Source: a virus | Lineage: Duplodnaviria; Heunggongvirae; Uroviricota; Caudoviricetes | Length of the DNA stretch: 64,000 nucleotides | IMG/VR virus record: IMGVR_UViG_3300029996_000255 | Strand: one strand, 5' to 3' | Shown here: positions 3,651 to 47,493 of the stretch, in pieces | Position numbering within the stretch: position 1 is the first letter of the stretch | Layout of the letters: each line of letters opens with the position of its first letter | Translations under genes and position numbers: made by a program | The notes under the pieces: model-generated | Seen by the model: the letters and a program-made list of their open reading frames with translations, nothing else | What the model was told of the DNA's origin: nothing | Databases searched by the model: none

Positions 3651-5279
3651 ATGAGTACCTATTATGAATATCAGGATGTAGGCGTAATGATGGCACATAA
3701 GCTTATGGCAATGGACGGATGGGAAGTGTTCGGATATCATGCAGACCATAGCGACATGATGACAGATTATTATGATCCTGCTTATTGGGGTGGAATTGCT
3801 ACAAAGAATGGATATATATTAGTTGTAAATTGGAGCAGAGATGCAAAGCCAGAAGAAATACGCAAATATAATTATGATGGAATACTTCAGGATAGAAGTA
3901 TTTCAGAAAAGATTGCAAAGCTTGAACAGATGACAATGGAAAGAGGAGCAAGTGAACAGGAAGAAGAATCAGCAAAGAAAATGATTGAGAAGTTACGGAG
4001 TAAGGCAAACGAAACTTCTGAAAAATATATTGTAACTGGTATTATTCCTGGACATATGGCAAACCCACCTAGAATGAATTGGCATATTGAAAAAGATGGT
4101 GTCTATGTAGCGAAAGGAAATGGAATTTTAAAGTTCGCTCATATTGATAACTATTATAGATATGAAGGCTACATGAAAGATATGCAGAATTTCAGAACTA
4201 TGAAGCGAGAAGAATATAAAAAATCTTTGATAACAACCTATATGGGTAGATGGAATGATGATGAAGAAAGTGCAGCACGACAGGCAGACAGTCATATTGA
4301 ATCAATGGAAAAAGATAAGGCACTTATGGATCAGTTCGAGGCATTTATCAATAAAATTGATACTACTTGTGGTGGAATGCTTGGAGAAGGAGATGGAGTT
4401 GTATATGAGAAGGTAAAAGTTACTGAATATAAAAAGGAAAACAAAGCTGTTGAAACAGAAAACGGATGTGTCAAAGATGGTCAGTGCTTTATCTTAAAAA
4501 CATCATTCAATTATGGCAGAAATAAGGGATATGTTTACAGAATTAAAGCAACTGTGTATGAGGATGGAAAAACTTCTTATCATGCATATAAACTTAATGG
4601 AAAACTTACAAAAGAATGTACAGGAAATGCAAATCAGGCTAATCACTGGTTTATTGGTACTATGACCGATGGATTTATGAAGTGGGTAAATAAAGGTGCT
4701 ATTGCATGGTGTGAAATTCAGGAAGTTAAAACACCTTATGAGGTTGAAAAGGTTGTAAAGAAAGTTATCAAGTCTAATACAAATAAGACAGAAACAAAGG
4801 CGACTGAAACTGATGTGGACGTAAATAAATATACCTACGAAGTAACAGAAGATACAGACACACGAACAGGAGAAAAGATATATCTTGCAAAGGTAATTGA
4901 GAAATTAAGCCGTGAAGAATATATCAAGGTAAATCAGTATATCAAATCTCTTGGAGGCTATTATAGTAAGTTCAAACATGCTTTCTTATTCAAAGAGAAT
5001 CCATGTGAAAAATTAAATGTAACTATTAAAGAGACAGAGAATAATACAGTGGACGATGCAACAGAACGTACAGAAACACAAATCACATACACTGTAACAG
5101 AAGATGTACACACCAAGACAGGTGAAAAGCTATTTGTAGTAAAGCCTGATACAGAATTATCAAAATCAGACTTTGCAGATGTAAAGCGAAAGCTGGCAAC
5201 ATTACAGGGATTTTACAGTAGCTTTAAGAAGGGATTTATATTCAAATATGATCCAACTGAAAAACTTAGTACAGTATAA
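3651..5279 (+). CDS. large hypothetical protein (542 aa) with two C-terminal tandem ~60-aa repeats (TGEK[IL]..K...LS..[DE][FY]..VK..L..L.G[FY]YS.FK.[AG]F[LI]FK..P.EKL)
   Basis: ORF track; GCGAGGTTGA RBS; internal repeat read from the translation. Confidence 0.7.
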   Translation: MSTYYEYQDVGVMMAHKLMAMDGWEVFGYHADHSDMMTDYYDPAYWGGIATKNGYILVVNWSRDAKPEEIRKYNYDGILQDRSISEKIAKLEQMTMERGASEQEEESAKKMIEKLRSKANETSEKYIVTGIIPGHMANPPRMNWHIEKDGVYVAKGNGILKFAHIDNYYRYEGYMKDMQNFRTMKREEYKKSLITTYMGRWNDDEESAARQADSHIESMEKDKALMDQFEAFINKIDTTCGGMLGEGDGVVYEKVKVTEYKKENKAVETENGCVKDGQCFILKTSFNYGRNKGYVYRIKATVYEDGKTSYHAYKLNGKLTKECTGNANQANHWFIGTMTDGFMKWVNKGAIAWCEIQEVKTPYEVEKVVKKVIKSNTNKTETKATETDVDVNKYTYEVTEDTDTRTGEKIYLAKVIEKLSREEYIKVNQYIKSLGGYYSKFKHAFLFKENPCEKLNVTIKETENNTVDDATERTETQITYTVTEDVHTKTGEKLFVVKPDTELSKSDFADVKRKLATLQGFYSSFKKGFIFKYDPTEKLSTV

Positions 5280-22888: not shown

Positions 22889-23146
22889 TTGAGTAGATAT
22901 AAGAATGGAAACCCAAAACATGCAAGTCGATTCATATGTTTAAAATGTATGAATGAAAATATGTTAGCCAGTGGAATTCAGAGACAGAGACAAAGAGAAC
23001 GAAAACATATTAAGGATTTGTATTGTTTGAAGTGTGGAGAGGTAACGAAGTGCATCGAAGTAAGATTTTGTGATTCTTATGAAGAAATTTTTGAGGTTGC
23101 AAAGATAAAAAGAGAGAATTATTACATAGACAATTATGAAAGGTAG
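22889..23146 (+). CDS. hypothetical zinc-ribbon protein (CLKCMN...CLKCGE)
   Basis: ORF track; AATGAGGTGAATAATG RBS. Confidence 0.45.
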   Translation: MSRYKNGNPKHASRFICLKCMNENMLASGIQRQRQRERKHIKDLYCLKCGEVTKCIEVRFCDSYEEIFEVAKIKRENYYIDNYER

Positions 23147-24152
23147 GTTGATGATAATGTGTTATAAAATAGAAGTGCAGAATAAAAATGCGGAGAAGCT
23201 TAATAAAAAATTAGATGAGTTAAATGCACCACAATTTTTAAGAGATTACTTAAATGAGTTGGAAAGCAAAAACGGAGCGCTAAATTATTTAGTGGCAATT
23301 AAAGATTTTTTACAGTGGTTGATTGAAAGTAATATTATTAATAAGAAATCAATTTCTGAAATAGAAGTTTCTGATTTTAATGACCTAAGACCACAAAATA
23401 TTAGTTCATATCTTAGATATAAGGAAACAAATGGAATGTCACCAACCACAACAGAAACAAGGAAAAATATCATTAAAAGTTTTATACAGGATATTTATTC
23501 ATACAGAGAGTGTTTGTTAAGAGAAGTTTATAGTAATATAGAAGATTTTTACAAAATGATTAAATATAAGGGAATCCCATCTGGAAACAACTTAATAAAA
23601 AAACTTCCAACAGAAAAGCAGCTTAATGACATGGAAGAGAAGATAATGTGGAAAAAGGATATTGCAGTAAAAAATAGGAATATTGCTATCTTTAGGGTAT
23701 TAAGGGGCACTGGTATAAGAGAGTCAGAGCTTGCTGGCTTAGATTTATCTGATTTACATTTGAAGGAAGAAATGCCATACATTACTATTCTTGGCAAAGG
23801 TGTGTACAGAGAAATGCAAAATAGAACCGTATATCTTAGCGGATCAGCCTTAAAAGCATTGAAAGAGTGGTTAGAGTATAGGTTGACATTGGATAATATT
23901 ATTGATACAGAAGCAGTTTTTATTAATAAAAACGGAACACGTACAACAGAGAAAAATATTAAGCAGATATTTGAAAATTACGGAAATGGTATTACTGCAC
24001 ATATGATGAGACATTATTATGCTACTGTAATGAATCAAAATGGAAATCTTGCATTCGTACAACAGCAGCTTGGGCATAGTAGTGTAAAAACAACTGTCAA
24101 AAATTATGCAAATGGAGCAGTGGGAATGAAAGATGTACTAAATAATATGTGA
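23136..24152 (+). CDS. int: tyrosine site-specific recombinase / phage integrase (alternative starts at 23151 and 23157)
   Basis: C-terminal catalytic motifs R..ELAGL, HMMRHYYAT, LGHSSVKTTVKNY read from the translation. Confidence 0.85.
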   Translation: MKGRLMIMCYKIEVQNKNAEKLNKKLDELNAPQFLRDYLNELESKNGALNYLVAIKDFLQWLIESNIINKKSISEIEVSDFNDLRPQNISSYLRYKETNGMSPTTTETRKNIIKSFIQDIYSYRECLLREVYSNIEDFYKMIKYKGIPSGNNLIKKLPTEKQLNDMEEKIMWKKDIAVKNRNIAIFRVLRGTGIRESELAGLDLSDLHLKEEMPYITILGKGVYREMQNRTVYLSGSALKALKEWLEYRLTLDNIIDTEAVFINKNGTRTTEKNIKQIFENYGNGITAHMMRHYYATVMNQNGNLAFVQQQLGHSSVKTTVKNYANGAVGMKDVLNNM

Positions 24153-24515: not shown

Positions 24516-24544
24516 TTGACAATATATATAGTGAAGTATATAAT
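24516..24544 (+). promoter_or_regulatory. consensus sigma-70 promoter (TTGACA, 17-bp spacer, TATAAT) driving the mazF-like gene; the spacer contains the recurrent ATATATATAGTG element
   Basis: -35 at 24516-24521, -10 at 24539-24544, read directly. Confidence 0.6.
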
Positions 24545-24587
24545 ACAAAATATCAAAGGAACAAACAGAGAAAGGAGGGCTAAAGCA

Positions 24588-24938
24588 ATGGACATAAAAC
24601 GTGGTGAAATATACTTCGCAGATGTAGGTAGATATGATTCTCAGGGTTCTGAACAGAGTGGTAGAAGACCAGTGTTAATACTTCAGAATGACATTGGAAA
24701 TAAATTTAGCCCTACCACTATTATTGCCATTATAACTACGAAGTCTAAAAGGGAATTACCAACTCACGTTGAGTTACATAAAGATAAATTCAACGGATTA
24801 AAACACGATTCTGTTGTAGCTCTTGAACAAATTACCACAATAGATAAAGATAGACTAAAGTTTAAGATTGGTAATTTATCTAATGATGATAATGTTCGTG
24901 TTATGGAAGCGATGAAAATAAGTCTGGCTATGATATAG
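24588..24938 (+). CDS. mazF: MazF/EndoA(NdoA)/PemK-family endoribonuclease toxin (116 aa), very similar in sequence pattern to B. subtilis EndoA
   Basis: RGEIYFADVG...GSEQSGRRPVLILQNDIGNKFSPTTIIAIITT...LPTHVEL...DSVVALEQITTIDKDRL; AAAGGAGGG RBS. Confidence 0.85.
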   Translation: MDIKRGEIYFADVGRYDSQGSEQSGRRPVLILQNDIGNKFSPTTIIAIITTKSKRELPTHVELHKDKFNGLKHDSVVALEQITTIDKDRLKFKIGNLSNDDNVRVMEAMKISLAMI

Positions 24939-27013: not shown

Positions 27014-28558
27014 ATGGCAGTAATGTTAGGAAGAGATAAGGTAGTAAAGACACAATTAATGTTAGGAACGGTGATTAAGCAGTTTAGAACAAATGTAATC
27101 AATAAGAATCATCCATTACAGAGAAAACCTGATCAGTGGTCGGACGAAGCAAAATCTGGACTTGCTGCCAGTGTAATTAAACATGAAGATATTGATTCAA
27201 TTAAATTATGTGAACAGATTTACGAAAATAGTTTCACAAACTGGCTTATTGATGGATTACAGAGATTAACTGTATTGGAAGAGTTTAAAAATAATGTCTT
27301 TGCAATGGGAAAATCATTGAGAATGCCTATGATAGCTTATCAAGCTGAAGATGGAAGTGGTAATGTTGTTGAGTATGATTTAAGAGGTAAGAAATACAAA
27401 GACCTTCCAGATGAGTTAAGAGAAGAATTTGATAATTTCCAGGTAGATATAGTTAAGCATCTTGATTGTACTAATGAAGAGATAGCTTATCATATTGATA
27501 GATATAATAAGCAGACAAGTATGAATACAAATCAGAAAAATGTTTTGATGATGTATAAAGTGGTAGATTCACTTAAAAGGGTTACAAAGAATAGATTCTT
27601 CTTGGACTGTGGTGAATATACAGCACCTGAAAGAAAGAAAGAAGTATTAAATAGAGTAGTTGAAGAGTCATTAATGTTAATGTTCCATTCTGATTCTTGG
27701 AAGAAAAACGCAGCTATGGCTAAGTATCTTAATGAAAATGCCGCAGAAGAGGAATTCAATATATTAGAAGAGGAACTTAATAGATTACAAAAAGTAATAG
27801 ATCAAGATACTAACGGACAGTTATTTAATAGCAAGAATAGCTTTATTTGGTTGGCAGCTTTTCATAAGTTTACTTCATATAACATAGAAGATATTAAATT
27901 TGCTGATTTCTTAAATGAATTTCAGGGAATATTACATAGCATGACATTTAAAGAATATGATAATGAATCATTTGATACATATGATAGCAACCGAAGCACA
28001 AAGGATAAAAAAGTTGTAATGGCTAAGTTAGATATGGTTACTAAGCTTATGGAAGAATATTTACATATAAATAAGGAAGAAACTCATTCAGAAATCGAAG
28101 AAGTTGTTGAAAATACAACAGAAAACACAGTACAAATTATCTCTGGAACAGAGAATAATACTATGTCTTCTAATGAAGACGATGAAACAGATAGTAATAT
28201 ATCAGAACAGAATACGGGTAGTTCTGATGTATTACAGTTTGTTCAAAATAGTGTGGCAGAAGATATAGAGAATGAAGATATAAGTGAATATCAAGATTTT
28301 GTTGATGTATATATTGATATAAATTCATCGTTATATAAACAGTGTGAAGCAGCGTTAATGGCATTAACAGCTTATGCTTATAAAACTGATAAGGATGAAG
28401 AACTTGCAACTTGGATTGAACAGTATCAGAAGAATTCAATTGATAAGACATATAGTTCTTCGCAGGAAGTAAATTATAGATATATGAAGAGAGATTTTGA
28501 TAATTACATAAATTTCTTAAATAATATGGAGAAAGGAAGAACAGCTAGTGTTAATTAA
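27014..28558 (+). CDS. DUF262 (ParB/GmrSD-N-like) domain protein with the IDGLQRLT motif; long acidic low-complexity C-terminal tail and no recognisable HNH/DUF1524 domain
   Basis: DGQQR-type motif at residues ~79-86. Confidence 0.55.
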   Translation: MAVMLGRDKVVKTQLMLGTVIKQFRTNVINKNHPLQRKPDQWSDEAKSGLAASVIKHEDIDSIKLCEQIYENSFTNWLIDGLQRLTVLEEFKNNVFAMGKSLRMPMIAYQAEDGSGNVVEYDLRGKKYKDLPDELREEFDNFQVDIVKHLDCTNEEIAYHIDRYNKQTSMNTNQKNVLMMYKVVDSLKRVTKNRFFLDCGEYTAPERKKEVLNRVVEESLMLMFHSDSWKKNAAMAKYLNENAAEEEFNILEEELNRLQKVIDQDTNGQLFNSKNSFIWLAAFHKFTSYNIEDIKFADFLNEFQGILHSMTFKEYDNESFDTYDSNRSTKDKKVVMAKLDMVTKLMEEYLHINKEETHSEIEEVVENTTENTVQIISGTENNTMSSNEDDETDSNISEQNTGSSDVLQFVQNSVAEDIENEDISEYQDFVDVYIDINSSLYKQCEAALMALTAYAYKTDKDEELATWIEQYQKNSIDKTYSSSQEVNYRYMKRDFDNYINFLNNMEKGRTASVN

Positions 28559-29108: not shown

Positions 29109-29244
29109 AAGAGAACAGATTGCAAAAGTTTGCCGACCTAAACAATCTGCTCAGAGAATAAAATATAGGATAAACTATATATGTTCTATTATAACAAATC
29201 TATTTGGCTAATTCAAGCCAGTTTATCCTATAACAATTAGTCTT

Positions 29245-29324
29245 TTGACTACGGGCTATTTTGAGTCCGAATAGTGAGGATTATATCACTCACTGAAAAG
29301 TATGTAATTTATATGTAATTTGAA
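29245..29324 (+). repeat. module A: ~80-bp structured prefix (..CCGAATAGTGAGG hairpin CTCACTGAAAAGTATGTAATT..TTTGAA) directly preceding repeat unit 1; a ~65%-identical copy (module B) lies at 29508-29587
   Basis: alignment of the two segments by eye. Confidence 0.5.
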
Positions 29325-29688
29325 GTTTTGGAAGTATATGAAATTACATACTAACAAAATACCTGGCAACAGAGAGGAGATGTTTCAGTTGTTTTGGAAG
29401 TATAGTTACATACTAGCAAAATTACATGATATATATCGACACAAGTTATAAAATTTTAGAAGTATATAAAATTACATCTCATTAAAAGAATATATAAATG
29501 AAATTAAAATCAATTCTATTGCGGTAGATTTTACTGCCGAATCGTGAGTGCAATGCAACTCATGAAAATCTATGTAATAAGTTTGAGGTTTTAGATACAT
29601 ATAAAATTACATAGGTATAAAACTAAAAATATGAAAATAAAAGTTAATGACAGTTTTAGATACATATAAAATTACATAGGTATAAAAC
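29325..29688 (+). CRISPR. CRISPR-like mini-array with five 32-36-bp direct repeats: 29325-29360, 29391-29422, 29453-29488, 29588-29623 and 29653-29688, the last two identical (GTTTTAGATACATATAAAATTACATAGGTATAAAAC). Spacers are 30, 30 and 29 bp, plus one ~99-bp interval occupied by module B
   Basis: repeat/spacer periodicity of 62-66 bp; repeats begin GTTTTRGA and end AAAA[CT]/AAAG with GTTTTA...TAAAAC terminal complementarity. Confidence 0.55.
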
Positions 29689-29769
29689 ACTTGCGTTGTT
29701 GTACTTGTAAACTGTTTAATTTTAGAGATATTTAAAATTACAAAAAATATAAAAGGAGATTTACAAATT

Positions 29770-31158
29770 ATGGGAAACAATAGAATGACAATTTGTAGAA
29801 AAATTAAATTATTTCCAGTAGGAGATAAGGATGAAATCAATAGAGTATATGACTTTATTAGAAATGGTCAGTATGCTCAATATCAGGCTTGTAACCTGCT
29901 TATGGGACAGCTTATGAGTGAATATTACAAATATAATCGTGATATTAAGAATGAAGAATTTAAGGCAAGACAGAAAGAAATAATGACAAACTCTAATATC
30001 ATATTAAAAGATATTGATTTTGCAACTGGTGTAGACACTCCATCAGCCGTTACTCAGAAAGTCAAGCAGGATTTCAGCACAGCTTTAAAGAATGGATTGG
30101 CTAAAGGTGAACGAACTGTAACAAATTATAAGAGAACTAATCCACTTATTACAAGAGGCAGAAACTTAACTTTTTATCATGAGTATGAAACATATCATGA
30201 TTTTTTAGACAAGATTAATGATTCTGATTTGGCGGTATATGTCAAGTGGGTTAATAAAATTGTATTTAAGGTTGTGTTTGGCAATCCGCATAGGTCATTA
30301 GAGTTAAGATCTGTTATTCAGAATATATTAGAAGAGAATTATAAAGTGCAAGGAAGTAGCATTGAAATTGATGGTAAGTCAATCATTTTAAATCTCTCAA
30401 TATCTATTCCAAAACAACTTAGAGAGCTGGATGAAAATATAGTAGTAGGTGTTGATTTAGGCATTGCAGTTCCTGCTATGTGTGCTTTAAACAATAATCT
30501 TTACGAGAGATTGGCAATTGGAAATGCAGATGATTTTCTAAGAATAAGAACTAAAATGCAAGCTCAGAGAAAAAGATTACAGAAGTCATTACGAAATACT
30601 TCTGGTGGTCATGGTAGAGCAAAGAAACTGAAAGCATTAGAAAGATTGCAGAAAGCAGAAGTACATTTTGTTGAAACATATTGTCATATGATAAGTAAAA
30701 GAGTCGTTGATTTTGCTTTAAAACATAATGCTAAATACATAAATATTGAGAATTTAACAGGATATGATACAAGTGATTTTATCCTGAGAAATTGGAGTTA
30801 TTATAAACTTCAAGATTATATTACATATAAAGCAGCTAAATACGGAATAGAAGTAAGAAAAATCAATCCTTGTTATACATCACAGATTTGTAGTGTATGT
30901 GGTAATTGGGAGTTTGGTCAGAGAAAGTCACAGTCAGTATTTGAATGTGCAAATGAGAATTGTGATAGTCATAAAAAATATGAAAAAACTGGTTTTAATG
31001 CAGACTTCAATGCTGCCAGAAACATTGCAATGTCAACTCTTTGGATGGGAAGTGGACAAGTTACTGAAAAGAGTAAACAGGAAGCAAGAGAATATTATGA
31101 TATCTCTGAAAAATATGAACAAAGTAAGAATGGTTCAGAGAATAATAAAGTAGCTTAA
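29770..31158 (+). CDS. TnpB/Cas12f-like RuvC nuclease (462 aa): RuvC-I VVGVDLGIAVPAM, Arg-rich helix, RuvC-II YINIENLTG, CxxC...CxxC zinc ribbon (CYTSQICSVCG...FECANENCDSH), RuvC-III NADFNAARNIA; catalytic D/E/D all present
   Basis: domain order and motifs match OrfB_IS605 plus the Zn-ribbon architecture; AAAAGGAGA RBS. Confidence 0.8.
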   Translation: MGNNRMTICRKIKLFPVGDKDEINRVYDFIRNGQYAQYQACNLLMGQLMSEYYKYNRDIKNEEFKARQKEIMTNSNIILKDIDFATGVDTPSAVTQKVKQDFSTALKNGLAKGERTVTNYKRTNPLITRGRNLTFYHEYETYHDFLDKINDSDLAVYVKWVNKIVFKVVFGNPHRSLELRSVIQNILEENYKVQGSSIEIDGKSIILNLSISIPKQLRELDENIVVGVDLGIAVPAMCALNNNLYERLAIGNADDFLRIRTKMQAQRKRLQKSLRNTSGGHGRAKKLKALERLQKAEVHFVETYCHMISKRVVDFALKHNAKYINIENLTGYDTSDFILRNWSYYKLQDYITYKAAKYGIEVRKINPCYTSQICSVCGNWEFGQRKSQSVFECANENCDSHKKYEKTGFNADFNAARNIAMSTLWMGSGQVTEKSKQEAREYYDISEKYEQSKNGSENNKVA

Positions 31159-31268
31159 GTGCTACTTAATCAATCGTAAGATTGCAGGTGATTTTGCACC
31201 TGAATGGCGAGGTTGTTAATTAATGGCACTCGTTAGAATCTATGTTAATAGTATCTGTGTGATTTGAG

Positions 31269-31304
31269 GTTTTAGATATGTTTAATTTAACATAGATACA
31301 AAAC
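31269..31304 (+). repeat. solitary 36-bp repeat downstream of the nuclease gene (GTTTTAGATATGTTTAATTTAACATAGATACAAAAC, ~78% identical to the upstream units), preceded by a partial module-like prefix (AATCTATGTTAATA..GATTTGAG)
   Basis: direct comparison with units 4 and 5. Confidence 0.5.
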
Positions 31305-31419
31305 ACGGTTAAGACAACATTTTACTCAGTAAAATGATTATTCAATATAGATACTACAGAAATGTTGAGATTATCAAGCTAATGGAAGAAAAATATAATA
31401 CGAAAAGGAGAATAGTTAA

Positions 31420-31581
31420 ATGTCAGTATTTTTTATATTAGTTTTAATAGGATTAATAATTTTATGGTTTCTACTGTCACCTTTATTTGAAAAAATTGGT
31501 AAGTTTGTTATCAATGTTATAAATAAAGTATTTTCGACAGATGAAATAAATAATAACGAAGAAAAGGAGACAAAAGAATGA
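31420..31581 (+). CDS. NfeD-like small membrane protein (53 aa), translationally coupled (ATGA) to the SPFH gene
   Basis: hydrophobic N-terminus FFILVLIGLIILWFLL; classic NfeD-SPFH operon arrangement; AAAGGAGAATAG RBS. Confidence 0.4.
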   Translation: MSVFFILVLIGLIILWFLLSPLFEKIGKFVINVINKVFSTDEINNNEEKETKE

Positions 31582-32447
31582 AGAAAACAATCGGAGGAGT
31601 AGTAACAGTAGTAGTAATTGTTGTTGTAGCAATATTATTATTTATGTCAAGTGTGCGTGTACCTGCTGGCTATATTGCCGTACAGTACAGTATGTCGGGT
31701 GGAGTAAAAGGCGATATTCTTACACAAGGATGGCATTTAAAGTCACCAACTGTAAAAACGACACTTTACTCGGTGAGTCTTGAACAGAGTTATTTAACAT
31801 CTGGTAAGGACGGAGACTCTAAAGATGATGACAGCTTTTCAGCGAGTTCATCTGAGGGTAAGGCTATGCAGATAGATCTTACATTTACATATCAGTATAG
31901 TCCTGATAAGGTAGCTGATCTATTTACAAGATTTAGAGGACAATCTGGAAAGGAAGTAAGAGACAGTTTTATTAAACCTAACATTATTTCTTGGACTAAA
32001 GAAATTGTTGCTAACTATAAGGTGTCAGATATTCTTGGTTCTGAAAGAGCAAATGTAAATACAGCATTAACTGATTATCTTAATAAGAAGTTTGAACCAT
32101 ATGGTATAGCGATTAGTAATGTATCATTGATTAATATTTCCGTTGATACAAAGACACAGGAAGCTATTAATGCAAAGATTACAGCACAGCAGGCAGCCGA
32201 AACTCAGGAAATTAATAATCAGACAGCTATTAATAAGGCAAAGGCTGATGCAGAAGTAACTAAGGCAGAAGCACAAGCAAAGGCTGATGCACAGTTAATC
32301 GAAGCCAAAGCACAGGCAGAGGCGAATAATAAGTTAAGTTCTTCTATTACAGATGAGCTTATAAGAATGAAGGAAGCCGAAGCAAGAAATAAATTTGGTT
32401 GGGTTACTATTTCTGGAACTAACAATACAGTTGTAACAGATAAGTAA
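31578..32447 (+). CDS. SPFH/band-7 (HflC/HflK/prohibitin-like) membrane protein with N-terminal TM helix and C-terminal Ala/Gln-rich coiled coil
   Basis: PAGYIAVQYSMSGGVKGDILTQGWHLKSP SPFH core motif. Confidence 0.7.
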   Translation: MKKTIGGVVTVVVIVVVAILLFMSSVRVPAGYIAVQYSMSGGVKGDILTQGWHLKSPTVKTTLYSVSLEQSYLTSGKDGDSKDDDSFSASSSEGKAMQIDLTFTYQYSPDKVADLFTRFRGQSGKEVRDSFIKPNIISWTKEIVANYKVSDILGSERANVNTALTDYLNKKFEPYGIAISNVSLINISVDTKTQEAINAKITAQQAAETQEINNQTAINKAKADAEVTKAEAQAKADAQLIEAKAQAEANNKLSSSITDELIRMKEAEARNKFGWVTISGTNNTVVTDK

Positions 32448-32468
32448 TTATTAATATTAATTAAAAGG

Positions 32469-32490
32469 TGTGATATAACTCACACCTTAC
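32469..32490 (+). terminator. hairpin (AGGTGTGA / TCACACCT, 8 bp) between the SPFH gene and tRNA-Gln; no T-run, so a terminator or processing structure
   Basis: read directly. Confidence 0.35.
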
Positions 32491-32493
32491 TAA

Positions 32494-32566
32494 TGGGATG
32501 TGGTGAAGTGGTCAACACATCAGATTTTGATTCTGACATTCGTGGGTTCGAATCCCACCATCCTAG
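32494..32566 (+). tRNA. tRNA-Gln (anticodon TTG)
   Basis: manual cloverleaf: acceptor TGGGATG/CATCCTA (U1:A72, typical of bacterial tRNA-Gln), anticodon stem TCAGA/TCTGA with loop TTTTGAT, T-arm GTGGG-TTCGAAT-CCCAC. Confidence 0.7.
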
Positions 32567-32570
32567 CTGT

Positions 32571-32643
32571 GTGCTATTAGATCAATAGGTAGAGCACTTG
32601 ACTTTTAATCAAGATGTTACGAGTTCAAGCCTCGTATGGCACA
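32571..32643 (+). tRNA. tRNA-Lys (anticodon TTT)
   Basis: acceptor GTGCTAT/ATGGCAC, D-loop with GG, anticodon stem CTTGA/TCAAG with loop CTTTTAA, T-arm ACGAG-TTCAAGC-CTCGT. Confidence 0.7.
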
Positions 32644-45191: not shown

Positions 45192-46028
45192 ATGATTAAA
45201 ATTAATGGTGAAATTGTAGCAATCAACAAGTTCCCAGATGGAACACCAAGAGTAAATATTGATACAAACAACATCGAGGAAGACACTTATGATGGCTCTC
45301 CTTGCATTTGGATTGAATGGATTTATGAGAGTAACGATGAGATGTTTTATCTGATGTTAGTAAGGAAACATCTTGAAAGATTTTTTACTAATGTGGATTA
45401 TTATTTATATCTTCCATATATTCCTAATGCACGAATGGATAGAGTAAAAAATGATGATGAAGTATTCACATTGAAGTATTTTTGCGATTTTATCAATTGG
45501 TTAGGATTTTCATCAGTTTATGTTTTAGATGCTCATAGCGATGTTTCTACTGCATTACTCAATAATTGTGTAAAAGAAAATCCAAAAGAGTATGTTGATA
45601 AAGCTATTTCAAAGATTGGCATGAGAAATCTTGTACTTTATTTCCCAGACGCAGGTGCAGCTAAGAGATATTCAGATTTATTCCCTGAGTTACCATATTG
45701 TTATGGTGAAAAGAAAAGAGATTGGAAGACTGGCAAAATCCTTGGATTAGACATTATAACAAATGGTATTGATTTGAAGGACAAAGCTGTGTTAATGATT
45801 GATGATATTATCGCATATGGCGGTTCACTTTATTATAGCGCAGAAGAATTAAAGAAGATTGGTGTAAATGAGATTTATGCTTATGCAACACATACAGAAA
45901 ATTCAATTCTTGATAAAGAAAAGGGTACGTTGATTAAGTCTTTGGAGAATAATACAGTGAGAGCATTATTCACAACAAACAGTATTTTTACTGGCAAGCA
46001 TGAAAAGATTACAGTTATGGAGGTTTAA
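45192..46028 (+). CDS. ribose-phosphate pyrophosphokinase (PRPP synthetase)-family protein; candidate ADP-ribose pyrophosphokinase (Adps) of an NARP1-type NAD+ reconstitution pathway
   Basis: PRPP/phosphoribosyl-binding loop VLMIDDIIAYGGSL; adjacent to a NAMPT homolog. Confidence 0.65.
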   Translation: MIKINGEIVAINKFPDGTPRVNIDTNNIEEDTYDGSPCIWIEWIYESNDEMFYLMLVRKHLERFFTNVDYYLYLPYIPNARMDRVKNDDEVFTLKYFCDFINWLGFSSVYVLDAHSDVSTALLNNCVKENPKEYVDKAISKIGMRNLVLYFPDAGAAKRYSDLFPELPYCYGEKKRDWKTGKILGLDIITNGIDLKDKAVLMIDDIIAYGGSLYYSAEELKKIGVNEIYAYATHTENSILDKEKGTLIKSLENNTVRALFTTNSIFTGKHEKITVMEV

Positions 46029-46032
46029 AATT

Positions 46033-47493
46033 ATGGATAACACAATGGCTTTATTACTTAGTGATACTTATAAGCAGTGTCATGATCGTATGTACCCAAA
46101 GGGATTAACTAAGTTAGTCTCATATTGGGTGCCTCGTAAATCAATGTTGGAAAATCAGAATCATATGGTTTTCTTCGGATTACAGGCTTTTATTAAGGAA
46201 TATCTAATTGGATATTTCCAGAAGAATTTCTTTGAATTATCAGAGAATGAGATGTTATCTCTTTATACAGATTCAATGGATGTGCAGATTGGCAGAGATA
46301 ATTACGACTTAGAGAAGATTGTAGAACTTCACAGACTTGGTTATCTGCCACTTGAAATTAGAGCTTTACCAGAGGGAACACTTGTACCAATGGGAGTTCC
46401 TTGTATTGAAATTACCAATACAGATGACAAATTTGCATGGCTTGTTCAGTGGATTGAGTGTATCCTTCAGGTTGAATTATGGAAGCCTTGCTGTCACGCA
46501 ACTATTGGTCATATGTATCGTGAGATTGCAGATTATTGGTATAACAAAACAACAGACGGTTTACCTGGCAATATGGCTTGTGCCGATTTTGGTATGAGAG
46601 GTATGTCTTGTATGGACGAAGCTACAAGATGTTCTGCTTCATGGTTATTATCTTTCAATAAGACTTCAACTATTCCTGCCATTACATATATTGATAAATA
46701 TTACAATGCTGATTGTAAGAATAATGGTATTGGAATTGGTGCAGTGTCAACAGAACATTCCGTAATGGGAGCAAATTACTCAATTGATGGTGATGAGATT
46801 ACATTTGTTAAGAGATTGCTTACAGAATTATATCCAAATACTTCATTCAGTATGGTTTCAGATACTTATGATTATTGGAATATGGTAAACAATATTCTTC
46901 CACAGTGCAAGGAAGAAATTATGAATCATAATGGCAAGTTACTTGTTCGTCCTGATAGTGGTGATATTGTAGAGATTTCAGTTAAGACAGTAGAAAGATT
47001 ATGGGATATCTTTGGTGGTTCTATCAATGGCAAGGGTTATAAGGTGTTAGATCCACATATTGGTATTATCTATGGTGACGGATGTACTCTTTCTAATGTA
47101 GAAACTATTTGGAAAGAATTAGAAAAGCGTGGATTTGCAGCTAATAACATTGCTTATGGTGTAGGTGCATTTTGTTTTACAGCTATTGTCGAGAATGGAA
47201 AGATGATTGTTGTTACAAGAGATACTTTTGGAATTGCAATGAAGGCTACTTATGGAGTTATTGATGGTAAGAAGCTTATGATCTTCAAAGATCCGAAGAC
47301 TGATACAAGCCATTTAAAGAAATCTCATAAGGGGTGTTGCAAAGTATATGAAGAAGATGGAGAACTGAAGTGTCAGGATCAGTTACTCGATATGAATGAA
47401 GATAGTTTGCTTACAACTGTATTCAAGAATGGAGAATTAGTAAGAGAGGATACATTTGAGGACATTAGGAACAGAATGTATGGAGGAAAGTAA
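46033..47493 (+). CDS. nadV: nicotinamide phosphoribosyltransferase (NAMPT/NadV) family protein; candidate Namat
   Basis: N-terminal LLLSDTYKQCHDRMYPKG...VSYWVPR pattern and ~490-aa size typical of NAMPT. Confidence 0.7.
   Translation: MDNTMALLLSDTYKQCHDRMYPKGLTKLVSYWVPRKSMLENQNHMVFFGLQAFIKEYLIGYFQKNFFELSENEMLSLYTDSMDVQIGRDNYDLEKIVELHRLGYLPLEIRALPEGTLVPMGVPCIEITNTDDKFAWLVQWIECILQVELWKPCCHATIGHMYREIADYWYNKTTDGLPGNMACADFGMRGMSCMDEATRCSASWLLSFNKTSTIPAITYIDKYYNADCKNNGIGIGAVSTEHSVMGANYSIDGDEITFVKRLLTELYPNTSFSMVSDTYDYWNMVNNILPQCKEEIMNHNGKLLVRPDSGDIVEISVKTVERLWDIFGGSINGKGYKVLDPHIGIIYGDGCTLSNVETIWKELEKRGFAANNIAYGVGAFCFTAIVENGKMIVVTRDTFGIAMKATYGVIDGKKLMIFKDPKTDTSHLKKSHKGCCKVYEEDGELKCQDQLLDMNEDSLLTTVFKNGELVREDTFEDIRNRMYGGK

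What the first reader, a model, noticed from the sequence alone, without database searches (positions are those of the whole stretch)
29245..29623. Two diverged copies of a ~110-bp structured module, each ending in a repeat unit, with a conserved internal hairpin
Segment 29245-29360 (module A plus unit 1) and segment 29508-29623 (module B plus unit 4) align along their whole length. The shared elements are ..G.TA.ATTTT...T.CCGAAT.GTGAG, a hairpin (GTGAGGattatatCaCTCAC in A versus TGAGTgcaatgcaACTCA in B), then TGAAAA.TATGTAAT, TTTGA[AG] and the GTTTT.GA repeat. The conserved stem-loop and repeat terminus suggest a transcribed structured RNA, either a tracrRNA/omega-RNA-like scaffold or a transposon right-end module, duplicated within the array. 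A partial third copy of the prefix (AATCTATGTTAATA...GATTTGAG) precedes the downstream repeat at 31269. A plain CRISPR leader occurs only once, so this multiplicity is unusual.
Basis: seen in the sequence. Interest (0 to 1): 0.6.

Follow-up and report, generated by a model that had tools for sequence, protein, structure and literature searches.

The report
Three tracrRNA copies heading phage Cas12f arrays
A gut phage carries a miniature CRISPR nuclease (Cas12f) whose helper RNA scaffold is present in three diverged copies, each joined directly to the first repeat of its own small, actively growing CRISPR array, so that scaffold, repeat and newest spacer can form one ready-made guide RNA.

Summary
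There are three full copies of the module, not two and a partial third: 29242-29360, 29512-29623 and 31175-31304, all on the + strand. They flank a 462-aa Cas12f1 gene (29770-31158) that is closest to CnCas12f1 and RhCas12f1.

Each module has stem 1, a bulged stem 2 and an anti-repeat. The anti-repeat pairs with the 3' half of the adjacent repeat, and the stem-1 loop forms a pseudoknot with the last bases of that repeat. This is the conserved core of Cas12f guide RNAs and TnpB omega RNAs.

Across 26 diverse units, 92.6% of cells pair and 18 of 30 pairs show compensatory changes. Each module matches its own array's repeats better than those of its neighbours.

Among near-identical phages, new 30-nt spacers appear only at the module-proximal end. 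Five such spacers hit one foreign element, all beside a 5'-CCA PAM. Nothing supports a transposon end.

My reading is that these are tracrRNA paralogues sitting in the leader position and fused to mini-arrays, a hybrid between an omega RNA and a CRISPR array. Tracr-repeat fusion and omega-RNA-like arrays have already been noted for Cas12f relatives, so this is a new variant of a known kind. No RNA data exist, so whether the scaffold acts in cis is inferred.

The parts
29204..29231 (+). Terminator-like hairpin plus T-run just upstream of module A. It may insulate the module-A transcription unit from upstream genes.
   Evidence: Consensus scan only. Promoter scan is uninformative in this AT-rich DNA: 19 sites found against 18.3 expected.
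29242..29324 (+). Module A, tracrRNA-type scaffold. Stem 1 is 29252-29257/29264-29269 with loop 29258-29263. Stem 2 is 29274-29281/29285-29293 with bulged A29288. The anti-repeat is 29299-29308. An 11-nt tandem duplication of the anti-repeat lies at 29301-29321. The leader-end motif TTTGAA is at 29319-29324.
   Evidence: CM hit 29242-29360 at 121.8 bits. MFE fold gives the three helices, z = -5.6. Covariation. Tandem repeat.
29325..29360 (+). Repeat 1, the first repeat of array 1 and contiguous with module A. Its 3' half (29343-29352) pairs with the module-A anti-repeat. Its last bases (29355-29360, CAAAAT) pair with the stem-1 loop as a pseudoknot.
   Evidence: Own-module complementarity is 15 of 15.
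29361..29488 (+). Rest of array 1: spacer s1 (29361-29390), repeat 2 (29391-29422, 4-nt deletion in its 5' half, 3' half intact), spacer s2 (29423-29452) and a degenerate terminal repeat 3 (29453-29488).
   Evidence: Spacers s1 and s2 are the shared trailer-end spacers of sibling phages.
29512..29587 (+). Module B, the second tracrRNA-type scaffold. Stem 1 is 29522-29527/29534-29539 with loop 29528-29533. Stem 2 is 29544-29551/29555-29563 with bulged A29558. The anti-repeat is 29569-29578 and TTTGAG is at 29582-29587.
   Evidence: CM hit 29512-29623 at 117.5 bits. Fold z = -3.9. A promoter-like site at 29482-29510 lies just upstream, which is weak evidence.
29588..29753 (+). Array 2: repeat 4 (29588-29623, fused to module B), spacer s3 (29624-29652), repeat 5 (29653-29688), spacer s4 (29689-29718) and a degenerate terminal repeat 6 (about 29719-29753) that abuts the Cas12f ribosome-binding site.
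   Evidence: Own-module complementarity is 15 of 15, against 12-13 of 15 with modules A and C.
29770..31158 (+). cas12f1 gene, 462 aa. It is a TnpB-type RuvC nuclease with a zinc ribbon, and the catalytic D229, E327 and D412 are conserved.
   Evidence: NCBIfam guided_TnpB 2.8e-47 and Pfam Cas12f1-like_TNB 1.7e-15. PDB matches: 8HR5 CnCas12f1 1.3e-87 and 9NZP RhCas12f 2e-81. Alignment A4.
31175..31268 (+). Module C, the third and complete tracrRNA-type scaffold. It starts 17 nt after the cas12f stop codon, which is the canonical tracrRNA / omega-RNA position. Stem 1 is 31185-31190/31197-31202 with loop 31191-31196. Stem 2 lies within 31207-31233. The anti-repeat is 31239-31248, an extended anti-repeat is 31251-31257, and TTTGAG is at 31263-31268.
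   Evidence: CM hit 31175-31304 at 111.4 bits. Fold z = -4.1. The Rh-like tracrRNA occupies the same position in L044.
31269..31304 (+). Repeat 7, a single repeat fused to module C, so in this phage the array is empty. Siblings have module-repeat-spacer-repeat here. Bases 31287-31296 pair with the anti-repeat and 31299-31304 with the stem-1 loop.

Best explanation
The modules are three paralogous copies of the tracrRNA-type guide scaffold of a phage-borne type V-F1 (Cas12f1) CRISPR system. Each copy sits where a CRISPR leader would be, directly upstream of its own mini-array, and runs without a gap into that array's first repeat.

When transcribed on the + strand, each module plus first repeat folds into the conserved Cas12f / TnpB guide core:
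- stem 1;
- a 5-bp pseudoknot between the stem-1 loop and the last bases of the repeat;
- a bulged stem 2;
- an anti-repeat:repeat duplex, whose loop is the linker plus the 5' half of the repeat.

The spacer that follows is always the newest one, because new spacers are added at this end. It is therefore expressed as part of a covalently continuous, omega-RNA-like single guide. RNase III may or may not later nick that guide.

The same scaffold, made in excess or from sister transcripts, serves the internal repeats of its own array in trans. Each scaffold has co-evolved with its own repeat variant.

The Cas12f dimer loaded with these guides cuts DNA next to a 5'-CCA PAM, and the phage uses it against competing mobile elements.

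Shown: the sequence anatomy, the covariation, homology to the RhCas12f tracrRNA, polarised spacer turnover, and protospacers with a PAM.

Inferred: transcription, action in cis rather than trans, processing, and cleavage.
For: 1. The effector is a Cas12f1 of the Cn/Rh clade with intact catalytic residues.

2. The structure is supported by covariation. On an independent MAFFT alignment of 26 diverse units, 92.6% of cells pair, against 29-45% when partners are slid. Eighteen of 30 pairs have compensatory changes, and the covariation score is 0.443 against 0.167 for shuffles (0 of 500). Pseudoknot pairs 18-140, 21-137 and 22-136 covary. RNAalifold finds the same three nested helices on its own.

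3. Many G-U pairs and better folding on the + strand (z = -3.9 to -5.6) indicate an RNA made from the gene strand.

4. Stems 1 and 2 match the RhCas12f-type tracrRNA directly downstream of the gene in L044. The validated sgRNA sequence comes from PMC13186708. Stem 1, the pseudoknot and stem 2 are the conserved core of Cas12f1 sgRNAs and of the TnpB reRNA (PMC12255294).

5. Pairing is cognate. Own module against own repeats gives 14.6 of 15 pairs, against 11.8 of 15 for other arrays in the same locus.

6. Canonical relatives (L044, L038, L034) have one tracrRNA, a gap of about 180 nt and 7-15 repeats. This clade always has the anti-repeat 3-45 nt from the first repeat, and 2-6 modules each with 1-5 repeats.

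7. Spacer addition is polarised. Trailer spacers are shared while module-proximal ones differ among phages whose Cas12f is 95-100% identical.

8. Five module-proximal spacers from different strains hit one foreign element, each with 5'-NCCA. RhCas12f uses a CCD PAM (PMC10090079).

9. In L006-L011 the downstream module has lost its anti-repeat and repeat while the upstream units are intact. The upstream copies must therefore be sufficient on their own.
Against: - There is no RNA-seq or end mapping, so transcription, the 5' and 3' ends and the fused species are all unproven. The promoter scan is uninformative.
- Internal repeats are copies of the first repeat made at each acquisition. Their match to the module is therefore expected and does not separate cis from trans use.
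- Adjacency alone could reflect economy of space in a phage genome. An RNase III cut in the long anti-repeat:repeat duplex would give an ordinary two-piece guide.
- No adaptation genes lie within +/-10 kb, and none of the eight other ORFs of at least 300 aa matches a Cas family in Pfam, so how spacers are acquired is unexplained.
- Three units in relatives have a different 5' hairpin and no obvious pseudoknot.
Confidence: 0.7

Rival explanations
1. The modules are ordinary trans-acting tracrRNA genes that happen to lie next to their arrays. The scaffold and the first repeat are never a functional single molecule, either because of separate promoters or terminators or because of obligatory RNase III processing, and the fusion has no consequence.
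For: - Internal repeats keep full complementarity to their own module.
- Modules A and C carry extended complementarity to the 5' half of the repeat, which would make a long RNase III-type duplex.
- Canonical relatives use a separate tracrRNA.
Against: - Contiguity is conserved in about 100 units across 50-100% protein identity.
- Some linkers are reduced to nothing beyond the repeat's own 5' half (L023 at 3671 and 4523).
- Module number rises as array length falls, and module-plus-single-repeat units are frequent.
- No terminator-like site lies between module and repeat.
Confidence: 0.2
2. The modules are only CRISPR leaders, acting at the DNA level as promoter plus integration signal for three arrays. 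The apparent RNA structure is irrelevant.
For: - New spacers enter next to the module.
- The last bases of the module are a nearly invariant TTTGAG|GTTT junction, like the leader end of type II-A arrays.
Against: - Compensatory changes occur in four helices, including long-range pairs between module and repeat.
- Stems 1 and 2 are homologous to a validated tracrRNA.
- No other tracrRNA candidate exists in the locus, although this Cas12f clade needs one.
- Leader and tracrRNA functions are not mutually exclusive.
Confidence: 0.04
3. The modules are right ends and omega RNAs of IS200/IS605-type TnpB transposons, so the locus is a cluster of mobile-element ends.
For: - The protein matches the TnpB family model.
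- Module C lies directly after the gene, like an omega RNA.
- Some bacterial relatives have a single module plus one 'repeat' and no array (L027, L030, L032).
Against: - There is no TnpA within +/-10 kb.
- The window holds only three copies, all at this gene.
- The guides are 29-31-nt spacers bounded by repeats, turned over in a polarised way, with foreign protospacers and a PAM.
- The nearest structures are Cas12f1.
Confidence: 0.03
4. The modules and repeats are RNA decoys (RNA anti-CRISPRs or solitary repeat units) that the phage uses to sequester a host Cas protein.
For: Phages are known to carry repeat-like decoys. That rests on my own knowledge and was not tested here.
Against: A cognate, catalytically intact cas12f gene sits between the arrays. 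The spacers have perfect foreign protospacers with the PAM expected for this effector.
Confidence: 0.02

Closest known systems
Type V-F1 CRISPR-Cas12f1 of the Clostridia clade (CnCas12f1, PDB 8HR5; RhCas12f1, PDB 9NZP) with its tracrRNA:crRNA guide
   Same: - The effector is homologous (E = 1e-87 and 2e-81).
- The scaffold has the same stem 1, a bulged-A stem 2 and an anti-repeat.
- A pseudoknot forms between the stem-1 loop and the repeat end.
- The tracrRNA starts just after the stop codon on the gene strand.
- The PAM is 5'-CCA, as reported for RhCas12f.
   Different: - Canonical loci have one tracrRNA, a leader of about 180 nt and one long array of identical 30-nt repeats (L044, L038, L034).
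- Here there are three diverged tracrRNA copies, and up to six in relatives. Each is fused to the first repeat of its own mini-array and lacks stems 3 and 4.
- Two arrays lie upstream of the gene.
- Repeats are 36 nt and spacers 30 nt.
TnpB omega RNA / reRNA (IS200/IS605 OMEGA systems)
   Same: The scaffold is contiguous with the guide, it has the same stem 1-pseudoknot-stem 2 core, and one copy lies directly downstream of the nuclease gene.
   Different: There is no transposase or transposon ends. The guides are acquired spacers bounded by repeats rather than flanking DNA. Several scaffold copies are present. The nuclease is a Cas12f1 rather than a mobile TnpB.
TranC, transposon-CRISPR intermediates (Jin et al., Cell 2025; known to me only through citing papers)
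   Same: The concept is the same: a compact TnpB-like nuclease able to use both a single-molecule scaffold-guide RNA and split tracrRNA plus crRNA from an array. Splitting of the RNA is the key evolutionary step.
   Different: This protein falls with the established Cas12f1 enzymes. I could not check whether the clade is one of the named TranC clades. Multiple co-evolving scaffold copies in the leader position are not described in the texts I could read.
Chimeric single guide RNAs and omega-RNA-like arrays of nuclease-dead Cas12f associated with sigma-E (Altae-Tran et al., PNAS 2023, PMC10691335; bioRxiv 10.1101/2025.06.10.658865)
   Same: The tracrRNA is fused to a (half) repeat to re-create an omega-RNA-like guide, and that unit is duplicated into arrays. 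Both descend from CnCas12f-like Cas12f1. [quoted passage not shown]
   Different: - Here the nuclease is catalytically intact and phage-borne, and is not linked to rpoE.
- Each fused unit is followed by normal repeat-spacer units that are still acquiring 30-nt spacers against foreign DNA.
- Each scaffold has diverged together with its own repeats.
tracr-L natural single guide of Streptococcus pyogenes Cas9 (Workman et al., 2021; from my own knowledge)
   Same: It is a naturally occurring RNA that combines tracrRNA and guide functions.
   Different: It belongs to a different effector family and its role is auto-repression of the cas promoter. I found no match between the post-repeat sequences and the cas12f promoter region.

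Membership tests
Type V-F1 CRISPR-Cas12f1 | Compact (about 400-550 aa) TnpB-derived effector with a RuvC domain and zinc ribbon, homologous to characterised Cas12f1 | tested here: met
   The protein is 462 aa. Pfam Cas12f1-like_TNB 1.7e-15, NCBIfam guided_TnpB 2.8e-47, and PDB 8HR5 1.3e-87 and 9NZP 2e-81.
Type V-F1 CRISPR-Cas12f1 | Intact RuvC catalytic residues (D-E-D) | tested here: met
   E327 is invariant and D229 and D412 are at least 90% conserved in alignment A4 with Rh, Cb3/4, Pt2 and Ch Cas12f1.
Type V-F1 CRISPR-Cas12f1 | Adjacent CRISPR array with variable spacers | tested here: met
   Three mini-arrays are present. There are 36 distinct 29-31-nt spacers among 20 sibling phages, turned over in a polarised way.
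Type V-F1 CRISPR-Cas12f1 | tracrRNA with an anti-repeat and the stem 1-pseudoknot-stem 2 core | tested here: met
   Covariation on A3 and a match to the Rh-type tracrRNA. The core is defined in PMC12255294.
Type V-F1 CRISPR-Cas12f1 | Dual-RNA guide: a single tracrRNA gene separate from the array | tested here: not met
   At the DNA level there are three tracrRNA copies, each contiguous with the first repeat. The RNA species actually made cannot be tested here.
Type V-F1 CRISPR-Cas12f1 | Targeting of double-stranded DNA that depends on a 5' PAM | tested here: inconclusive
   Five of five protospacers in L122 carry 5'-NCCA, which matches the RhCas12f CCD PAM. Cleavage itself cannot be tested.
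Type V-F1 CRISPR-Cas12f1 | Homodimer on one guide RNA | not testable with these tools
   Not attempted.
TnpB-omega RNA (IS200/IS605) | Association with TnpA and transposon ends, and multiple copies | tested here: not met
   No Y1 or serine transposase lies within +/-10 kb. Modules occur only at this gene in the window. The first genome-contig scan found no close copy.
TnpB-omega RNA (IS200/IS605) | Scaffold contiguous with the guide, encoded at the 3' end of the gene | tested here: met
   Module C starts 17 nt after the stop codon and runs into repeat 7. All modules are contiguous with a repeat and then a spacer.
TnpB-omega RNA (IS200/IS605) | The guide is the DNA flanking the element, not an acquired spacer | tested here: not met
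   The guides are 29-31-nt spacers bounded by repeats and have foreign protospacers.
TranC (transposon-CRISPR intermediate) | Placement in one of the TranC clades defined by Jin et al. 2025 | not tested
   The paper is not held in the library, so only citing texts were read.
TranC (transposon-CRISPR intermediate) | Uses both a single-molecule reRNA and tracrRNA plus crRNA | not testable with these tools
   The DNA arrangement is compatible, with a fused first unit followed by plain repeats, but RNA and activity data are needed.
dCas12f-sigma-E omega-RNA-like arrays | Nuclease-dead effector linked to rpoE | tested here: not met
   Catalytic residues are intact and no sigma factor lies nearby.
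dCas12f-sigma-E omega-RNA-like arrays | tracrRNA fused to (part of) a repeat, with the unit duplicated | tested here: met
   The precedent is described in PMC10691335.
Type II-A CRISPR array (considered only for the junction motif) | Leader end and repeat start ATTTGAG/GTTT, 36-nt repeats, 30-nt spacers | tested here: met
   TTTGAG|GTTT occurs in about 80 of 97 units. The motif is defined in PMC5382924. Repeats are 36 nt and spacers 29-31 nt.
Type II-A CRISPR array (considered only for the junction motif) | Cas9, Csn2, Cas1 and Cas2 adjacent, and the PAM on the leader-distal (3') side of spacers | tested here: not met
   These genes are absent. The conserved flank is 5'-CCA on the leader-proximal side, and there is no 3' consensus.

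The most novel reading that the evidence does not exclude
In this phage clade the tracrRNA has taken over the leader position, so spacer acquisition and guide expression are physically coupled. Every newly acquired spacer is inserted directly behind a scaffold-repeat fusion and is at once expressed as a self-sufficient, omega-RNA-like single guide.

The unit has been duplicated into 3-6 co-evolving, partly orthogonal scaffold/repeat sets that serve one nuclease-active Cas12f.

This would be a living hybrid between an omega-RNA array and a CRISPR array. It would show that the split between tracrRNA and crRNA is reversible, or not yet complete, in an adaptive, nuclease-active system. The leader-end motif, identical to that of type II-A arrays, hints that a host adaptation machine is borrowed.
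Probability: 0.35. Interest if true: 0.8.

Novelty: new variant of a known kind. Interest (0 to 1): 0.65.

Why it matters
- **Evolution of type V guides.** The current model is that type V CRISPR systems arose from TnpB when the omega RNA split into tracrRNA and crRNA. In one clade of dead Cas12f the two pieces later re-fused. This locus is a nuclease-active, still-adapting system in which the fused first unit and the split internal repeats coexist in the same arrays. Canonical split relatives and single-unit, omega-like relatives sit in the same protein clade. That makes the split/fusion step directly testable by comparison and mutagenesis.
- **Paralogous scaffolds.** One effector served by several co-evolving scaffold/repeat sets within a single type V locus is something I did not find described in the held literature.
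- **Practical value.** The scaffold lacks stems 3 and 4 of the Rh and Cn guides. Its core is roughly 85 nt, which is short for a Cas12f guide.
- **Ecology.** Sibling phages independently acquired spacers against the same small replicon, which gives a clear case of phage-encoded CRISPR used in conflicts between mobile elements.

Tried and rejected
- **Rfam.** No family matches the modules at gathering or at E <= 1. The only hit is a sub-threshold CRISPR-DR22 match to repeat 5.
- **GenBank phages (INPHARED).** No DNA match to the locus.
- **First genome-contig scan with the single protein.** It found nothing. The alignment-based scan was needed.
- **Promoter scan.** At chance level, so not usable.
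- **Window spacers s1 and s4, and the L015, L005 and L009 spacers, against IMG/VR.** These returned only the arrays themselves. I found no protospacer for any of the window's own four spacers.
- **Auto-regulatory guide idea (tracr-L-like).** No partial match of spacers or post-repeat sequences to the cas12f upstream region.
- **Repeat-repeat recombination as the cause of the deletions after the last downstream repeat.** There is no repeat-like sequence at the distal breakpoint.
- **Type II-A hijack as the source of spacers.** The junction motif fits, but the PAM side and orientation do not.
- **Pfam context for the outer parts of the window.** Exact-protein look-up failed. The large ORFs show no Cas1.
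- **The TranC paper.** It could not be read.
Full report
**1. The observation**

The region holds a 462-aa ORF (29770-31158, + strand) flanked by CRISPR-like repeats of 36 nt. They share 80 of 116 identical positions, and 0 of 2000 shuffles score as well. The scaffold parts without the repeat align too (alignment).

The 'partial' third copy upstream of the repeat at 31269 is in fact complete. A covariance model built later scores the three copies at 121.8, 117.5 and 111.4 bits (29242-29360, 29512-29623, 31175-31304). It finds nothing else in the 64-kb window, even with filters off around the locus.

The layout is as follows:
- Module A, then repeat 1, spacer s1, repeat 2, spacer s2 and repeat 3.
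- Module B, then repeat 4, spacer s3, repeat 5, spacer s4 and repeat 6.
- The cas12f gene.
- Module C, then repeat 7.

**2. The gene**

The protein matches NCBIfam guided_TnpB (2.8e-47) and Pfam Cas12f1-like_TNB. Its best solved relatives are 8HR5 (1.3e-87) and 9NZP (2e-81). According to PMC13186708 these are CnCas12f1 and RhCas12f, and bioRxiv 10.1101/2025.06.10.658865 also names 8HR5 as CnCas12f.

In an alignment with published Cas12f1 sequences of that clade it is 43-50% identical. E327 is invariant and D229 and D412 are at least 90% conserved. It is therefore a nuclease-competent Cas12f1.

The context is a phage or prophage region:
- An integrase, an HTH protein, a PemK toxin, methyltransferases and two tRNA genes are present.
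- There is no Cas1, Cas2, Cas4 or TnpA within +/-10 kb.
- None of the eight other ORFs of at least 300 aa matches a Cas family in Pfam.

**3. What the module is**

I collected 26 IMG/VR phage loci that encode relatives of the protein. Twenty are 95-100% identical and six are 50-60% identical. A profile of the three modules finds two upstream copies and one downstream copy in the close relatives. In the distant relatives it finds one upstream copy and up to five downstream copies.

A MAFFT alignment of 26 diverse module-plus-first-repeat units (A3) shows four helices:
- Stem 1 (columns 11-16 with 23-28).
- Stem 2 with a conserved bulged A (columns 33-40 with 52-61).
- A 10-bp duplex between the module's 3' part and the 3' half of the repeat (columns 67-76 with 124-133).
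- A pseudoknot between the stem-1 loop and the last bases of the repeat (columns 18-22 with 136-140).

The pair counts support this structure:
- 92.6% of cells form standard pairs, against 29-45% when partners are slid by 1-3 columns.
- 18 of 30 pairs show changes on both sides.
- The covariation score is 0.443, against 0.167 +/- 0.012 for shuffles (0 of 500 reach it).
- The pseudoknot covaries at three positions: G-C versus A-U at 22-136, U-A versus C-G at 21-137, and U-A versus C-G at 18-140.

RNAalifold, run on the same alignment without my structure, predicts the same three nested helices, and 15 of 24 pairs have compensatory changes. Single-sequence folds of the three window copies give this structure on the + strand, with z = -5.6, -3.9 and -4.1. 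The - strand folds less well. Many pairs are G-U, which only work on the + strand.

**4. Homology to a validated tracrRNA**

The RhCas12f sgRNA used for cryo-EM (supplement of PMC13186708) begins ACGGCUGAUUUAGCAGCCGAAGUCUGAGGGC...GCCACUCGGAAAG. That is the same stem 1, GAA linker and bulged-A stem 2 as in the modules. Its stem-1 loop AUUUA can pair with the crRNA end UAAAU.

The covariance model finds this element in L044, a MAG whose tracrRNA is nearly identical to the Rh sgRNA. It lies about 35 nt after the cas12f stop codon on the gene strand, and only stems 1 and 2 align. Stem 1, the pseudoknot and stem 2 are described as the conserved core of Cas12f1 sgRNAs and of the TnpB reRNA (PMC12255294).

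The modules are therefore tracrRNA homologues that lack stems 3 and 4. Module C occupies the canonical position. Rfam has no family for them.

**5. What differs from canonical loci**

In L044, L038 and L034 the order is gene, tracrRNA, a gap of about 180 nt, and then one array of 7-15 identical 30-nt repeats.

In the window's clade the arrangement is different:
- The anti-repeat lies 3-45 nt from the first repeat in every unit. In the shortest units the hairpin loop is just the 5' half of the repeat.
- Several modules occur per locus, each followed by only 1-5 repeats.
- Bacterial MAG loci (Lachnospiraceae, Butyrivibrio, Roseburia) and further metagenomic relatives with 55-70% identity show the same fused arrangement. 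They often have one module upstream and one downstream of the gene.

Within a locus each module fits its own array. Own module against own repeats gives 14.6 of 15 pairs for both first and internal repeats, against 11.8 of 15 for the other arrays. In the window the values are 15 of 15 against 10-13 of 15.

In L006-L011 the downstream module has lost its anti-repeat and repeat while the upstream units are intact, so the upstream copies are not mere relics.

**6. The arrays are live CRISPR arrays, and the module is at the leader end**

Among 20 sibling phages there are 36 distinct spacers of 29-31 nt:
- Trailer-end spacers are shared (s1-s2, s4, s17-s18, s31).
- Differences lie at the module-proximal end (for example s5, s7, s29, s30, s35, s19 and s33).
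- Spacers s17 and s25 are overlapping reverse complements.
- Spacer s6 occurs in two different arrays.

The newest array-1 spacer of L001, whose Cas12f is 100% identical to the window's, matches four gut-metagenome contigs at 30 of 30 positions. Re-screening all spacers gave the following:
- Five module-proximal spacers from different strains hit one 1.5-kb stretch of that same element (L122).
- Each of the five has 5'-NCCA.
- The 3' flanks share no motif.

The element encodes a replication-initiation protein (phrog_4402) and resembles an unannotated faecal phage record. CCA agrees with the CCD PAM reported for RhCas12f1 (PMC10090079). A first spacer of L023 and L024 has a perfect protospacer in another viral contig, L119, with a different flank.

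I found no protospacers for the window's own four spacers.

**7. How it most likely works**

Shown:
- Three paralogous tracrRNA-type scaffolds are present.
- Each is contiguous with, and co-evolving with, the repeats of its own mini-array.
- Spacers are added next to the scaffold.
- Foreign targets carry a Cas12f-type PAM.

Inferred:
- Each unit is transcribed on the + strand. Module C may come from read-through of cas12f, as omega RNAs do.
- The scaffold pairs in cis with the first repeat and forms the pseudoknot. This gives an omega-RNA-like single guide that carries the newest spacer.
- Internal repeats are served in trans by the same scaffold.
- RNase III may nick the long duplex seen in modules A and C.

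The main rival is that the scaffolds act only in trans and the adjacency has no functional meaning. Sequence alone cannot separate the two. The other readings fail, as follows:
- Leader-only function is contradicted by the compensatory changes and by the tracrRNA homology.
- A transposon end is contradicted by the absence of TnpA and of further copies, and by the spacer biology.
- A decoy RNA is contradicted by the intact cognate nuclease and the PAM-flanked protospacers.

**8. Relation to what is known**

Altae-Tran et al. (PNAS 2023, PMC10691335) noted three relevant points:
- Cas12 arrays usually lie downstream of the gene, as omega RNAs do.
- In the sigma-E-linked dead-Cas12f clade, a half repeat fused to the tracrRNA and the unit was then duplicated into omega-RNA arrays.

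The Sternberg-lab preprint shows that those dCas12f enzymes use chimeric single guides. Jin et al. (Cell 2025) proposed that splitting of the RNA created type V systems and named the TranC intermediates. I could read this only through citing papers.

Full-text searches for natural loci with several tracrRNAs, or for phage Cas12f mini-arrays, found no description of this arrangement.

The elements of the idea are therefore known. What I did not find described is a nuclease-active, phage-borne, still-adapting Cas12f1 with several co-evolving scaffold/repeat sets, each scaffold sitting in the leader position. I rate it a new variant of a known kind.

**9. Open points**

The module-repeat junction is TTTGAG|GTTT in about 80 of 97 units. 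That is the type II-A group-1 leader end ATTTGAG/GTTT (PMC5382924). The repeats are 36 nt and the spacers 30 nt, as in type II-A arrays. However, the conserved CCA lies on the leader-proximal side, which is the type I / type V orientation. The adaptation machinery remains unknown.

All RNA-level claims need RNA-seq and interference assays.

Noticed in passing
window 29319-29328, 29582-29591, 31263-31272; same junction in L001-L026: The last bases of every module plus the repeat start read (A)TTTGAG|GTTT in about 80 of 97 units. This is identical to the conserved leader end and repeat start of group-1 type II-A CRISPR arrays. Repeats are 36 nt and spacers 30 nt, also as in type II-A. However, the PAM (5'-CCA) lies on the leader-proximal side, which is not the type II-A orientation. 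Which adaptation machinery serves these arrays is unexplained.
   Followed up: partly
L122 759-2210 (also L123, L124, L126); spacers from L001, L002, L003/L004, L012/L014, L015/L016: Five different leader-proximal spacers from sibling phages all target a 1.5-kb stretch of one small foreign element that encodes a replication-initiation protein. Each has 5'-NCCA. One spacer (L012) matches only the 23 PAM-proximal bases. This looks like repeated, independent immunisation against one competitor.
   Followed up: partly
L015/L016/L019 at about 4103 or 4037 and L020 at about 4102, compared with window 31305-32488 and 31305-31748: In these siblings the sequence immediately after the last downstream repeat continues with what lies 1.2 kb further on in the window (just before the tRNA at 32494), or 0.44 kb further on (inside the Band_7 gene). 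So deletions or insertions begin exactly at the repeat end. There is no repeat-like sequence at the distal breakpoint.
   Followed up: partly
L006-L011 at 3911-3965; L014 at 3911-3970; L012 at 3911-4032: The downstream module C is truncated in several sibling phages. Stems 1 and 2 are kept while the anti-repeat and repeat are deleted, or there is an internal deletion. The two upstream units remain intact.
   Followed up: partly
L024 4302-4415, L025 4359-4484, L026 3945-4049: Three units in distant relatives replace stem 1 with a different, shifted 5' hairpin followed by UACGCCGAA. They have no obvious pseudoknot partner for the repeat end, so they may be a variant scaffold architecture.
   Followed up: no
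L007-L010 (spacer s17) and L011 (spacer s25); L001 array 2 and L020 downstream array (spacer s6): Spacer s25 is the reverse complement of s17 shifted by 4 nt, so the same target site was sampled on both strands. Spacer s6 occurs twice in tandem in L001 array 2 and also in the downstream array of L020.
   Followed up: no
window 29301-29321: An 11-nt tandem duplication (TATGTAATTTA x 1.9) duplicates the anti-repeat of module A and lengthens the predicted anti-repeat:repeat hairpin.
   Followed up: no
L044 4591-5276, L038 4549-4985: Canonical Rh-like Cas12f1 arrays use 30-nt repeats that end in GGAATGTAAAT, with spacers of about 36 nt. From memory these resemble clostridial type I-B repeats, which also use a CCN PAM. 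That would suggest this Cas12f clade borrows whichever adaptation system its host has.
   Followed up: no
window 32494-32566, 32571-32643; 23136-24152; 24516-24938; 27014-28558; 46000-47493: The neighbourhood holds two tRNA genes, a tyrosine integrase, a PemK-type toxin with an HTH neighbour, a weak (below Pfam's cut-off) GmrSD_N-like protein directly upstream of the arrays, and a NAMPT/NAPRTase gene. This looks like an accessory or counter-defence island of a large gut phage.
   Followed up: no
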